Source: Chloroflexota bacterium (lineage in GTDB: Bacteria; Chloroflexota; Anaerolineae; Anaerolineales; Villigracilaceae). Taken from it: a stretch of 64,000 nucleotides of DNA. The stretch spans positions 8,400 to 72,399 of the forward strand of contig JBBIGZ010000009.1 of the NCBI GenBank assembly GCA_037447295.1, given 5' to 3'. Below the pieces are notes generated by a model. It was not told the origin of the DNA. It did no database searches and was given only the letters and a program-made list of their open reading frames with translations. This document shows, one piece after another, positions 43,736-45,699 of the stretch. The translations under genes and the position numbers were made by a program. Positions within the stretch are counted from its first letter, which is position 1, and every line of letters begins with the position of its first letter.

Positions 43736-44375
43736 TCGTCCTTTTGAGGGTTTCTCTTCTCAGGAAACCTTTACTCCCCTGCCGGACACCTTCTTCCGCC
43801 AATTGCTGGCCCAGATGGACGATCTGGATGAGCTGAAGGTGACGCTCTATGCCCTTTGGCGCATTCAAAACATGCAGGGAGCGGTGCGCTTTCTGCGAGA
43901 GGAAGATTTTCAGTCCAGCGGGGCGGGAGATCTTCGCCACGGCCTGGAACGTGCCGTCTCACGCGGGACGTTGCTGCGGGTCGAGCATGAGGCGGGGCGC
44001 TTTTACTTTCTCAACTCGCCGCGCGGCCGTTTGGCGGCAGAAGCGCTTCGGAGCGGGCGCTGGCATCCGTCCTCGTCCACCCCTCCTCCACCCCCTCCGC
44101 TCAACATCTTCCGCCTATACGAGGACAATATTGGCCCCCTCACCCCTATCCTGGCCGATGCGCTACAGGATGCCGAACGGACGTATTCTACCGAGTGGGT
44201 GGCCGAAGCGATTGCCCTGGCCGCAAAACGCAACAAACGAAATTGGAGATATATCGAAAGCATTCTGAAACGTTGGGAGGTTGAAGGCCGTGCCCAAAAG
44301 CAAGATCGAGGAGAGCCTGGAACGGATCGCGGCGCGCATGTCCGCCGAAAAATTGACGAGTTCCTCCGTAAATAG
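43728..44375 (+). CDS. DnaD-domain replication protein
   Basis: 215 aa. The C-terminal IFRLYEDNIGPLTPILADALQDAERTYSTEWVAEAIALAAKRNKRNWRYIESILKRW matches the DnaD/phage-associated domain pattern. It overlaps the dnaB stop by 8 nt. Confidence 0.7.
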   Translation: MSDRPFEGFSSQETFTPLPDTFFRQLLAQMDDLDELKVTLYALWRIQNMQGAVRFLREEDFQSSGAGDLRHGLERAVSRGTLLRVEHEAGRFYFLNSPRGRLAAEALRSGRWHPSSSTPPPPPPLNIFRLYEDNIGPLTPILADALQDAERTYSTEWVAEAIALAAKRNKRNWRYIESILKRWEVEGRAQKQDRGEPGTDRGAHVRRKIDEFLRK

Positions 44376-45699
44376 AAGCGACCTGCCCGGAGACCCAAAC
44401 TGTCCACACTGCCACGGCCTGGGCTATTTGCGCGCCGATGTGCCTCCGGGGCATCCACGCTTCGGGAAGCTGGAGCCCTGCGTCTGTCGCACGCGGGAGA
44501 TCACGCAGGAAGTACACCAGCGTCTATTCGCCCTTAGCCGATTGAGCGAGCTGAGCCAAATGCGCTTTGAGACCTTTCAGCCAAAAGGGCGCGGCGGGCT
44601 TTCCCCTCTCCAGGCGCAATCGCTGGAGATGGCACTCAACCAGGCACAACAATTCGCTCATTGCCTGGATGGCTGGCTGCTGCTGATGGGAGGCTATGGC
44701 TGTGGCAAGACGCACCTGGCGGCCGCGATCGCCAATTTTGCCGTCGAGCACGGGGTGCCGACGCTCTTCCTCACCGTTCCCGATCTGCTCGATCAGTTGC
44801 GCTTTGCCTACGAGGCCGAAGAGACTACGTTTGAAGAGCGCTTCGAGGAAATTCGCAATGCCACGCTGCTGGTGTTGGATGATTTTGGCACCCAAAATGC
44901 CACTCCTTGGGCACAGGAGAAGCTCTTCCAGATCGTGAACTACCGCTATACCAACCGCCTGCCCACGGTGATCACCACCAACCTGAGCCTGGATGAGATC
45001 GAACCGCGCATTCGCTCCCGTTTGCAGGACCCGGAGCTGGTCACCAAAGCGATCATCCGCGCCCCCGATTATCGCCGCCCGACGAGCGATATGGGACACC
45101 CGGAACTTTCCTCCCTGGATCTCCATGCCGGTCAAACCTTTGAGACCTTCTCTATGCGGGAGGATGAGGAACTCGATGCTGAGGCCAGGCGCAGCCTGAA
45201 GGAGGCACTCAAAGAAGCGGAAAAATTTGCCCGTCAGCCGCGCGGCTGGTTGGTGTTGACCGGGGATTACGGCTGCGGCAAGACGCATCTGGCGGCAGCG
45301 ATTGCCAATCAGCAGGCGCGTTCGGGCGATCCGCCCCTCTTCATCATGGTGCCCGATCTGCTCGATCACTTGCGTGCTACCTTTAGTCCTTCCAGCCCGG
45401 TGACCTTCGATCGCCGCTTTGAAGAGATCCGCACCGCTCCGCTGCTCATCCTCGATGACCTGGGCACCCAATCCATGACCCCCTGGGTGCGCGAGAAGCT
45501 AGCGCAGCTCTTCAATTACCGTTACGACGCCATGTTGCCAACCGTGATCACCATCGCCGCCGATGCGCTGGGGGAACTGGATATGCGCATCCGTAGCCGC
45601 CTGCTCGATGAGCGACTGGTGAAGATCGTGGCGATCACCGCGCCGCCCTACCACGCCCGCAAAACCGCCCGGCGCAAAAAGAAGACGGAAGAACGGTAG
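44338..45699 (+). CDS. tandem-duplicated DnaC/DnaI/IstB-like AAA+ ATPase (putative helicase loader) with an N-terminal Cys4 motif
   Basis: Two complete modules. Module 1 has [16 protein letters not shown] and [10 protein letters not shown]. Module 2 has [16 protein letters not shown] and [10 protein letters not shown]. The N-terminal motif is [10 protein letters not shown] ... CVC. The start is uncertain: ATG 44338, GTG 44290 (with GGGAGG at 44275-80) or TTG 44281. All three overlap the dnaD-like gene. Confidence 0.75.
   Translation: [453 protein letters not shown]

What the first reader, a model, noticed from the sequence alone, without database searches (positions are those of the whole stretch)
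44281..45699. Helicase-loader-like protein built from two complete tandem DnaC/IstB-type AAA+ modules behind a Cys4 motif
The ORF encodes two full copies of the same ATPase module. The first reads [60 protein letters not shown] ... [39 protein letters not shown] ... RIRSRL. The second reads [60 protein letters not shown] ... [38 protein letters not shown] ... RIRSRL. Walker A, Walker B and the RxRSRL region are intact in both, and by eye the halves share about half their residues. Ahead of them lies [10 protein letters not shown]-x17-CVC, reminiscent of the zinc-binding N-terminal domain of DnaI. Known DnaC and DnaI loaders carry a single AAA+ module and assemble as hexamers on DnaB. A covalent dimer implies a trimer-of-dimers arrangement, possibly with specialised halves. 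I do not know of a described tandem loader.
Basis: partly seen in the sequence, partly recalled or inferred. Interest (0 to 1): 0.65.

Follow-up and report, generated by a model that had tools for sequence, protein, structure and literature searches.

The report
Two-module DnaB helicase loader of Chloroflexota
This gene encodes what is very probably the cell's own replicative-helicase loader, unusual in carrying two DnaC/DnaI-type ATPase modules in one chain, one complete and one partly disabled; the layout is standard across Chloroflexota genomes but I found no paper describing it.

Summary
One ORF encodes a Cys4 N-terminal domain followed by two DnaC/IstB-type AAA+ modules. The most likely start is GTG 44290, not TTG 44281; the gene ends at 45699. 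The modules are 52% identical as protein and 61% as DNA.

It is not an assembly artefact. At least 578 species-level genomes carry full-length relatives, and nearly all that are labelled are Chloroflexota (Anaerolineales, Dehalococcoidia, SAR202). The gene always follows dnaB and a DnaD-domain gene.

The best reading is the chromosomal DnaB loader. A published survey lists one dnaC/dnaI-type gene and no dciA in Chloroflexi.

New here is that the halves are specialised. In this clade module 1 keeps all five catalytic residues. Module 2 keeps Walker A, Walker B, the Arg finger and the ssDNA-contact residues, but has Ala at sensor I and His at sensor II. In Dehalococcoidia-type relatives the roles are swapped.

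The Cys4 domain is not detectably a DnaI N-domain. I found no paper describing a tandem loader. Verdict: a new variant of a known kind, moderately to highly interesting.

The parts
41570..42160 (+). Bifunctional-nuclease-domain (BFN) gene upstream of dnaB. This is conserved context, not part of the loader.
   Evidence: Pfam PF02577, E=3.7e-37. Found upstream of dnaB in 68 of 80 related loci.
42377..43735 (+). dnaB, the replicative DNA helicase and presumed client of the loader.
   Evidence: TIGR00665 scores 565 bits against a cut-off of 385. Pfam DnaB and DnaB_C both match. Found directly upstream in 77 of 80 related loci.
43728..44375 (+). DnaD-domain (DnaB_2) protein, a presumed co-loader or remodeller. 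It overlaps dnaB by 8 nt and the loader gene by 86 nt.
   Evidence: PF07261 E=1.2e-9; TIGR01446 scores 44.7 against a cut-off of 24.95; PHROG 186 'DnaD-like helicase loader'. Present in 80 of 80 related loci.
44274..44280 (+). Shine-Dalgarno-like GGGAGG, 9 nt upstream of GTG 44290.
   Evidence: Sequence read directly.
44290..45699 (+). Tandem loader CDS, 469 aa plus stop. A database call starts at ATG 44338.
44401..44487 (+). Cys4 motif [10 protein letters not shown]...CVC, a putative zinc ribbon and helicase-binding domain. Residues are C22, C25, C48 and C50 in the 453-aa numbering.
   Evidence: The four Cys are invariant or nearly so in 105 sequences. The model shows two short strands followed by a long helix. 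Metal binding and DnaB binding are inferred.
44533..45081 (+). Module 1, comprising a linker helix and a complete AAA+ core. Walker A 44689-44712 (K124); Walker B 44866-44889 (D181 D182); sensor I N215 at 44980-44982; Box VII RIRSR 45007-45021 (coupler R224, finger R228); sensor II R246 at 45073-45075.
   Evidence: Residue roles were mapped onto E. coli DnaC K112/E170/N203/R216/R220/R237 as given in PMC8213410.
45082..45105 (+). Short inter-module connector (TSDMGHPE), the lowest-confidence internal stretch of the model.
   Evidence: pLDDT is about 72 for residues 241-260 in model 2, and below 50 for residues 247-257 in model 1.
45106..45657 (+). Module 2, a second linker helix plus AAA+ core. 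Walker A 45262-45285 (K315), Walker B 45442-45465 (D373 D374) and Box VII RIRSR 45586-45600 (R417, R421) are intact. The sensor I position is Ala407 (45556-45558) and the sensor II position is His439 (45652-45654).
45658..45696 (+). Basic C-terminal tail [13 protein letters not shown]. Its sequence varies among homologues but stays rich in Lys and Arg.
   Evidence: Alignment A1. pLDDT is 64-66.

Best explanation
This is the resident chromosomal loader of the DnaB replicative helicase in an Anaerolineales (Chloroflexota) bacterium. It is co-transcribed, and probably translationally coupled, with dnaB and a DnaD-domain gene.

The protein has four parts: a small Cys4 domain (putative zinc ribbon), AAA+ module 1, AAA+ module 2, and a basic tail. 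Both modules belong to the DnaC/DnaI/IstB branch of the initiator clade. In the model both have two helices between strands 2 and 3, which is the initiator-specific motif, and neither has a lid domain.

Shown here: the architecture, its conservation, the synteny, and the state of each catalytic residue.

Inferred working model:
1. The single N-terminal domain docks on the C-terminal face of DnaB, as the N-domains of DnaC and DnaI do.
2. Module 1 is the hydrolysing ATPase. It has Walker A and B, sensor I Asn, Arg coupler, Arg finger and sensor II Arg.
3. Module 2 still binds ATP and ssDNA. It keeps Walker A and B and the equivalents of the DnaC ssDNA tetrad (R346, F349, T381, W383). It is hydrolysis-impaired because sensor I and sensor II are replaced. 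In E. coli DnaC, N203A or R237D alone abolishes ATPase activity.

My preferred arrangement, held with low confidence, has six protomers per DnaB hexamer. The complete modules would form the DnaC-like ATP-dependent spiral around ssDNA. The degenerate modules would form a second, nucleotide-bound but largely non-hydrolysing layer that extends or stabilises the ssDNA-bound assembly. This parallels two-tier AAA+ machines such as NSF and p97, where one tier works and the other is structural.

The DnaD-domain protein presumably recruits the complex to the origin, as in the Bacillus and phage DnaD-DnaI systems.
For: Family assignment. PF01695 matches with two stretches, and PRK08116 scores above its cut-off. 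The best solved-structure sequence matches are DnaI, DnaC and IstB, at E of 1e-16 to 1e-12. Each module superposes on Aquifex DnaC 3ecc (target-normalised TM-score 0.80, rmsd 2.6 A) and on DnaI 2w58 (0.71).

Chromosomal role. The order dnaB, dnaD-like, loader occurs in 77-80 of 80 Anaerolineales loci. Dehalococcoidia-type loci have rplI-dnaB-dnaD-loader. The supplementary table of Brezellec et al. 2016 lists one dna[CI] and zero dciA for every Chloroflexi genome in the six passages retrieved.

Reality and breadth. All 120 top hits are 418-478 aa. At least 578 species-level genomes carry it. There are 725 clusters at 50% identity with E<=1e-30.

Asymmetry. In a 105-sequence alignment no protein has sensor I Asn in both modules. 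It is in module 1 only in 63 and in module 2 only in 32. In 393 sequences, the Asn-bearing module keeps its own Arg finger in 232 of 232 (type A) and 56 of 56 (type B). The other module loses its finger in 33 of 232 type A proteins. Walker A Lys and the first Walker B Asp are invariant in both modules of all 105 sequences. The ssDNA-tetrad equivalents are invariant or conservatively replaced in both modules in nearly all of them.

Selection on module 2. Mean identity between proteins is 0.66 for module 2 and 0.64 for module 1, so module 2 is as constrained as module 1.

Model quality. pLDDT is 91 and pTM 0.71 with the diverse alignment.
Against: There are no functional data for any member. DnaB binding, zinc binding, ATP binding and ssDNA binding are all inferred by homology.

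I could not read the model coordinates, so the relative position of the two modules is unknown.

Foldseek superposition on two-tier AAA+ chains (p97, Cdc48, NVL) is poor: query-normalised TM-score at most 0.42 and rmsd at least 10 A. The two-layer analogy is therefore functional only, not structural.

A rare relative has three complete modules plus one degenerate module in one chain (P0121). That is easier to picture with side-by-side modules than with stacked ones.

PRK08116 passes its cut-off only as the summed score of two modules.

The sensor I pattern is less clean in the rougher 393-sequence alignment. There, 84 proteins have no Asn in either module and a handful have Asn in both.
Confidence: 0.72

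Rival explanations
1. Trimer of covalent dimers. Three protomers would sit on one DnaB hexamer. Modules 1 and 2 would alternate in a single six-module DnaC-like spiral. Active sites (module 1 ATP plus module 2 finger) would alternate with non-hydrolysing sites (module 2 ATP plus module 1 finger), much like the alpha3beta3 head of F1-ATPase.
For: The 7.5 A crystal structure of DnaB-DnaI-DnaG(HBD) was interpreted as one helicase hexamer with three loader dimers (PMC3791466). Both modules keep Walker A and B, the Arg finger (in this clade) and the ssDNA-contact residues. The four-module relative P0121 suggests that modules adjacent in the chain can be neighbours in an AAA+ array. Model 2 has pTM 0.71, which implies a defined inter-module geometry.
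Against: In this model the complete site of module 1 depends on the module 2 finger. That finger is Leu in 33 of 232 type A proteins, which nevertheless keep module 1 sensor I (232 of 232) and sensor II (229 of 232). The complete module's own finger is never lost, although here it would serve only the dead site. Only three helicase-binding domains would be available for six DnaB subunits. Three- and four-module variants do not tile a hexamer evenly.
Confidence: 0.3
2. Module 2 is an intramolecular regulator rather than part of the working spiral. It would dock on the oligomerisation face of module 1 as a built-in pseudo-neighbour. This would keep the loader monomeric or auto-inhibited until DnaB, the DnaD-like protein or ssDNA releases it.
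For: Loader self-assembly is a known control point. A phage protein blocks S. aureus DnaI by binding its AAA+ domain (abstract of PMC4887207). Module 2 has lost hydrolysis residues but keeps nucleotide-binding ones. The confident single-chain model suggests a fixed module 1-module 2 contact.
Against: Module 2 keeps all four ssDNA-contact equivalents at essentially 100%, which a pure cap would not need. In type B proteins the degenerate module is N-terminal, which would require a different geometry for the same role. There is no direct evidence.
Confidence: 0.15
3. The gene is not the host loader. It would instead be part of a mobile element: an IS21 IstB-type transposition helper, or a prophage DnaD/DnaC replication module.
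For: PF01695 is named after IstB. PHROG 50 'DnaC-like helicase loader' matches at E=3e-91. Bacillus phages carry adjacent DnaD-like and DnaC-like genes that match at about 32% identity. Brezellec et al. regard cellular dna[CI] genes as domesticated phage genes.
Against: The position next to dnaB is fixed across two classes and hundreds of genomes, and next to rplI in the Dehalococcoidia-type loci examined. There is no IstA transposase or phage gene nearby. The NCBIfam IS21 helper model scores 146.8 against a cut-off of 200. No tandem form was seen among 50,697 phage records; every listed match spans only 690-813 nt of phage DNA, too short for two modules. A phage origin in the distant past is not excluded and would not change the present role.
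Confidence: 0.04
4. The ORF is an artefact: two adjacent single-module genes fused by a sequencing frameshift, or a mis-assembled duplication.
Against: The reading frame is uninterrupted. The module DNAs are 61% identical with no long exact repeat. Hundreds of independent assemblies give the same 420-480 aa protein.
Confidence: 0.01

Closest known systems
DnaI, the helicase loader of Bacillus/Firmicutes (structures 2w58, 4m4w, 5he8)
   Same: The AAA+ module belongs to the same branch; 2w58 is the best solved-structure sequence match (E=6.7e-16) and superposes with target-normalised TM-score 0.71. Walker B is of the DD type. There is a cysteine-containing N-terminal domain. It works in a system that includes a DnaD-domain protein. 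It is a resident chromosomal loader in a lineage without DciA.
   Different: DnaI has one AAA+ module; this protein has two. The N-domain is not detectably homologous: PF07319 does not match, the ligand pattern is Cys3His in DnaI and CxxC...CxC here, and the domain is about 50 residues here against about 100 in DnaI. The NCBIfam DnaI model scores below its cut-off (148 against 228). The gene is adjacent to dnaB, which is not the Bacillus arrangement.
DnaC of E. coli and Aquifex (6qel/6qem, 3ecc)
   Same: The fold matches (3ecc target-normalised TM-score 0.80, rmsd 2.6 A). Module 1 has equivalents of K112, E170 (here Asp), N203, R216, R220 and R237. Both modules have equivalents of the ssDNA tetrad K143/F146/S177/Y179.
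   Different: DnaC has a single module with a helical N-terminal helicase-binding element and no Cys motif. The PRK07952 model scores 119 against a cut-off of 357. Module 2 here lacks the sensor I and sensor II residues, each of which is individually essential for DnaC ATPase.
Single-module DnaC-like loaders of Firmicutes and their phages (NCBIfam PRK08116, PRK06835, PRK06921; PHROG 50)
   Same: These are the best profile matches, and the match extends into the Cys-containing N-terminal region (PRK06835 covers residues 21-248; PHROG 50 covers 7-249). In the phages the gene is paired with a DnaD-like gene.
   Different: All phage hits examined are single-module; the matched DNA spans only 690-813 nt. 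No tandem form was seen in the phage collection.
IstB, the IS21 transposition helper (5bq5, 8q3w)
   Same: Same Pfam family (PF01695) and a similar AAA+ core (target-normalised TM-score about 0.6).
   Different: There is no IstA partner. The NCBIfam equivalog scores below its cut-off. The genomic context is replicative.
Two-tier (type II) AAA+ proteins: NSF, p97/Cdc48, Pex1/Pex6, ClpB
   Same: Two AAA+ modules in one chain, one fully catalytic and one keeping nucleotide binding but losing hydrolysis residues. Which module is the active one differs between lineages.
   Different: They belong to a different AAA+ clade (classic, with lid domains). Global superposition is poor (query-normalised TM-score at most 0.42, rmsd at least 10 A). 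The comparison is a functional analogy only.

Membership tests
Pfam IstB_IS21 (PF01695), the DnaC/DnaI/IstB AAA+ branch | Profile match above the gathering score | tested here: met
   125.7 bits against a cut-off of 24.1, with two separate stretches, one per module.
Initiator-clade AAA+ (DnaA/DnaC/Orc) | Extra helix pair between strands beta2 and beta3 (initiator-specific motif), and Box VII with an R-x-x-x-R coupler/finger pair | tested here: met
   The predicted secondary structure has two helices between beta2 and beta3 in both modules: H147-157 and H165-173, then H338-347 and H357-365. RIRSR is present in both modules, matching DnaA RLKSRF and the DnaC R216/R220 spacing. This rests on a prediction, not an experimental structure.
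NCBIfam PRK08116 (DnaC-like subfamily) | Whole-protein score at or above 189 bits | tested here: met
   219.8 bits. This is the sum over two modules, so a single module might not pass.
DnaI (NCBIfam PRK08939; Pfam DnaI_N PF07319) | DnaI-type N-terminal zinc-binding helicase-interaction domain, and an equivalog-level score | tested here: not met
   PRK08939 scores 148 against a cut-off of 228. PF07319 does not match the whole protein or the isolated N-terminal 100 residues at E<=10. No PDB sequence match to the DnaI N-domain was found.
DnaC, enterobacterial type (NCBIfam PRK07952) | Equivalog score at or above 357 bits | tested here: not met
   119.3 bits.
IstB, IS21 helper ATPase (NCBIfam NF038214) | Equivalog score at or above 200 bits, and an adjacent IstA transposase | tested here: not met
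   146.8 bits. The neighbours are dnaB, a dnaD-like gene, a pyrimidine-nucleoside phosphorylase gene and comM.
Replicative helicase loader (functional class) | Binds the replicative helicase and promotes its loading on ssDNA | not testable with these tools
   Support is indirect only: conserved adjacency to dnaB, and the survey table listing no dciA in Chloroflexi.
Zinc-ribbon / Cys4 metal-binding domain | Four conserved metal ligands on two knuckles | tested here: inconclusive
   CxxC and CxC are invariant or nearly so across 105 sequences, and two short strands are predicted. No family profile or solved structure matches significantly. Metal binding is untested.
Type II (two-tier, classic-clade) AAA+ ATPases | Two classic-clade AAA+ modules with lid domains, stacked as D1 and D2 | tested here: not met
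   Foldseek full-length matches to p97, Cdc48 and NVL have query-normalised TM-score at most 0.42 and rmsd of 10-19 A. Each module fits DnaC far better.

The most novel reading that the evidence does not exclude
A bacterial helicase loader has become an obligately asymmetric AAA+ machine by internal duplication. One module hydrolyses ATP and its paralogue only binds it, and the active and inactive positions have swapped between Anaerolineae and Dehalococcoidia. If the modules sit side by side, three chains would form a covalent pseudo-hexamer with alternating live and dead sites on DnaB. That would be a bacterial counterpart of heteromeric eukaryotic loaders (ORC-Cdc6, RFC) and a natural experiment on how many active sites a ring loader needs.
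Probability: 0.3. Interest if true: 0.78.

Novelty: new variant of a known kind. Interest (0 to 1): 0.6.

Why it matters
Bacterial helicase loading is understood from single-module loaders (DnaC, DnaI, lambda P) and from DciA. A phylum-wide loader with two fused AAA+ modules, one of them systematically hydrolysis-impaired, bears on two open questions: how many ATP sites a loader needs, and which interfaces must turn over ATP. It also shows, within bacteria, the route from homomeric to functionally heteromeric AAA+ loaders that eukaryotic ORC-Cdc6 and RFC represent.

There is also a practical point. These proteins are annotated only as 'ATP-binding protein', 'DnaC' or even 'DnaA', so surveys of loader distribution miss the architecture.

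Tried and rejected
1. Assembly or frameshift artefact. Rejected on DNA divergence between the modules and on cross-genome conservation.

2. Homology of the Cys4 region to the DnaI N-domain. No Pfam or PDB sequence match was found. The only weak hits are to cytochrome c and DM domains (E 0.03-0.1), which I regard as chance CxxC matches.

3. Deciding whether the duplication happened once or independently in the two clades. A four-group distance test on 157 columns gave nearly equal sums (1.961, 1.974, 1.973) and bootstrap support of 86, 50 and 64 out of 200. This is unresolved. An earlier nearest-neighbour count (164 of 184 of the same module type) reflects mostly type A proteins.

4. Reading the inter-module geometry from the AlphaFold model. 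Coordinates are not exposed to the script environment. Foldseek against the PDB only shows that no solved chain shares the two-module arrangement.

5. The first structure job, with 32 close homologues, gave pTM 0.47. It was superseded by the 105-sequence job, with pTM 0.71.

6. Promoter and terminator scans of 41300-46000 gave nothing above the shuffled expectation.

7. The strict rule 'exactly one module with sensor I Asn' holds in the curated 105-sequence alignment. In the rougher 393-sequence alignment it holds for only 288 of 393. Some exceptions are misalignments and others are real Ser, Asp or Thr substitutions.

8. Six literature searches found no description of a tandem DnaC/DnaI. This is absence in the held library only.
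Full report
**1. What is in the sequence**

The + strand carries an uninterrupted ORF from 44281 to 45699. Its product matches the DnaC/DnaI/IstB AAA+ family twice. Pfam PF01695 gives E=2.7e-36 with two stretches. NCBIfam PRK08116 gives 219.8 bits against a cut-off of 189, also with two stretches.

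Residues 85-264 and 276-457 of the 472-aa reading align at 52% identity, E=4e-57. The duplicated unit is a linker helix plus the AAA+ core. The Cys4 region occurs once.

At the DNA level the two units are 60.7% identical (318 of 524), and the longest similar stretch is 44 nt at 84%. A collapsed or mis-joined repeat is therefore excluded.

The likely start is GTG 44290. GGGAGG lies 9 nt upstream, and homologues start M/V-PKSKIDE at exactly this point. One database copy is called from ATG 44338. I use that 453-aa numbering below.

**2. Context**

The gene is the third of three overlapping genes:
- dnaB, 42377-43735 (TIGR00665, 565 bits);
- a DnaD-domain gene, 43728-44375 (PF07261, TIGR01446);
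- the loader.

The overlaps are 8 nt and 86 nt. A bifunctional-nuclease-domain gene lies upstream. Pyrimidine-nucleoside phosphorylase and comM lie downstream.

**3. Distribution**

- The 120 best database hits are all 418-478 aa and 66-100% identical.
- A scan of one genome per species found at least 578 genomes with a full-length relative. Nearly all of the 80 loci kept are labelled Anaerolineales, Anaerolineae or Chloroflexota.
- In those 80 loci the dnaD-like gene precedes the loader in 80, dnaB in 77 and the nuclease gene in 68.
- An exhaustive profile-free search found 725 clusters at 50% identity with E<=1e-30. Full-length two-module proteins reach down to about 35% identity.
- Where names exist for the distant members, they are Dehalococcoidia, SAR202 or Chloroflexota.
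- Dehalococcoidia-type loci read rplI-dnaB-dnaD-loader, the classical chromosomal position of the replicative helicase.
- Brezellec et al. 2016 report a domesticated dna[CI] gene in Chloroflexi. Their table lists one dna[CI] and no dciA for Anaerolinea, Chloroflexus, Roseiflexus and Dehalococcoides. They do not mention two modules.

Taken together, this is very probably the organism's only DnaB loader.

**4. Relatives**

The nearest solved proteins by sequence are Geobacillus DnaI, E. coli and Aquifex DnaC, S. aureus DnaI and IstB.

A structure prediction with a diverse 105-sequence alignment is confident (pLDDT 91, pTM 0.71). Each module has the five-stranded core, two helices between strands 2 and 3 (the initiator-specific motif), and no lid domain. 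Each module superposes on DnaC 3ecc at target-normalised TM-score 0.80 and rmsd 2.6 A. No solved chain shares the two-module arrangement; p97-type chains fit poorly, with query-normalised TM-score at most 0.42 and rmsd at least 10 A.

Equivalog models for DnaI, DnaC and IstB all score below their cut-offs. The protein therefore belongs to the branch but to none of the three named families.

Phage relatives (PHROG 50; Bacillus phages IEBH, 250 and PfEFR-4) are single-module genes next to DnaD-like genes. No tandem form was seen among 50,697 phage records.

**5. The N-terminal domain**

The motif CPxCxGxGY...CxC is invariant or nearly so across 105 sequences. It is predicted as two short strands leading into a long helix. 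It matches no Pfam family and no solved structure significantly, and it does not match DnaI_N. B. subtilis DnaI uses Cys67, Cys70, His84 and Cys101 in a fold of about 100 residues. The resemblance to DnaI is therefore one of role, by inference, and not of demonstrated homology.

**6. The halves are specialised**

I mapped residues onto E. coli DnaC using Puri et al. 2021: Walker A K112, Walker B E170, sensor I N203, Arg coupler R216, Arg finger R220, sensor II R237, and the ssDNA tetrad K143/F146/S177/Y179. N203A or R237D alone abolishes DnaC ATPase.

| Element | Module 1 | Module 2 |
|---|---|---|
| Walker A | K124 | K315 |
| Walker B | D181 D182 | D373 D374 |
| Sensor I | N215 | A407 |
| Arg coupler | R224 | R417 |
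| Arg finger | R228 | R421 |
| Sensor II | R246 | H439 |
| ssDNA tetrad equivalents | R155, Y158, T189, W191 | R346, F349, T381, W383 |

This holds throughout the window's clade.

Across the family the pattern is complementary. In the 105-sequence alignment no protein has the sensor I Asn in both modules. Sixty-three have it only in module 1 (type A: Anaerolineales and relatives). Thirty-two have it only in module 2, and nine more have Asp there (type B: Dehalococcoidia-type).

In a rougher 393-sequence alignment there are 232 type A and 56 type B proteins. The remainder are partly misaligned and partly Ser, Asp or Thr variants.

The Asn-bearing module is essentially perfect. In type A it has Walker A 232 of 232, Walker B 232 of 232, finger 232 of 232 and sensor II 229 of 232. 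In type B every element is 55-56 of 56.

The other module always keeps Walker A and B and the ssDNA residues. It loses sensor I, often sensor II, and in 33 of 232 type A proteins the Arg finger (RLKSL).

Module 2 is as constrained as module 1. Mean identity between proteins is 0.66 against 0.64, so it is a working part and not a decaying copy.

**7. How it probably works**

- Shown: the architecture, synteny, conservation and motif states.
- Inferred: the single Cys4 domain holds DnaB. The complete module is the ATPase that drives and times loading, as in DnaC. The degenerate module binds ATP and ssDNA without efficient hydrolysis. The DnaD-domain protein recruits the complex.

Two assemblies remain possible.

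*(a) Six chains per DnaB hexamer.* The complete modules contact each other in a DnaC-like spiral, and the degenerate modules form a second, mainly structural layer. This fits four observations:
- the complete module's own finger is never lost;
- the degenerate module's finger is dispensable in a sizeable subgroup;
- the canonical loader:helicase ratio is 6:6;
- in two-tier AAA+ machines one tier is often inactive, and which one varies by family.

This fits the low-resolution DnaB6-(DnaI2)3 crystal structure. It also fits a rare relative, P0121, which has one Cys4 domain, three complete modules and a degenerate C-terminal module. Its modules are 40-64% identical to each other, so it is not an assembly repeat.

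I prefer (a) at roughly 0.45 against 0.30. A regulatory-cap role for module 2 is a third option. I could not inspect the model coordinates, so the geometry is open.

**8. History of the duplication**

Whether the duplication occurred once, followed by differential decay or a module swap, or twice, could not be resolved. The three quartet topologies are nearly equal and bootstrap support is split 86, 64 and 50.

**9. Novelty**

Six full-text searches found no description of a tandem DnaC/DnaI loader. The proteins are in public databases only under generic names. I rate this a new variant of a known kind. It is not rare in nature, but it appears undescribed and it has a clear, testable asymmetry.

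Noticed in passing
P0121 (827 aa) and P0124 (792 aa), relatives from metagenome assemblies: Rare relatives have more than two modules behind a single Cys4 domain. P0121 has three complete modules (TTN, R..SR, PDYR/PNFR) followed by one degenerate module (ITIF, PDYQ). Its modules are 40-64% identical to each other. P0124 has at least three modules.
   Followed up: partly
L081-L084 (Dehalococcoidia-type loci), genes at about 3000-7350: Type B tandem loaders sit in the order rplI-dnaB-dnaD-like-loader, and an ssb gene lies a few kb downstream in L082-L084. The operon is therefore older than the split between the two classes.
   Followed up: partly
window 41438-42160 (probable start 41570): A bifunctional-nuclease-domain (PF02577) gene lies immediately upstream of dnaB. 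It is conserved there in 68 of 80 Anaerolineales loci. Any link to replication is unknown.
   Followed up: no
window 45707-45768: Three copies of a 16-nt C-rich direct repeat (CCACCGTCCACGGTCC) lie in the 108-nt gap between the loader gene and the pyrimidine-nucleoside phosphorylase gene. No terminator-like hairpin was found there.
   Followed up: no
window 43728-44375 against 44290-45699: The loader CDS overlaps the end of the dnaD-like CDS by 86 nt in another frame, and dnaB overlaps the dnaD-like gene by 8 nt. A similar long overlap is seen in L001, L002 and L081. This suggests translational coupling of the three genes.
   Followed up: partly
L064, L072 (CP070731.1) and P0101: Records labelled Nitrosomonadaceae, Flavobacteriaceae and Atribacteria carry tandem loaders 60-67% identical to the window's. 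These are most likely mis-binned or mislabelled Chloroflexota sequences. If real, they would indicate horizontal transfer.
   Followed up: no
P0464: One tandem loader is annotated in NCBI as 'Chromosomal replication initiator protein DnaA', an annotation error that hides the family.
   Followed up: no
window 62001-64000: G+C falls to 0.48, against 0.52-0.62 in the rest of the window.
   Followed up: no
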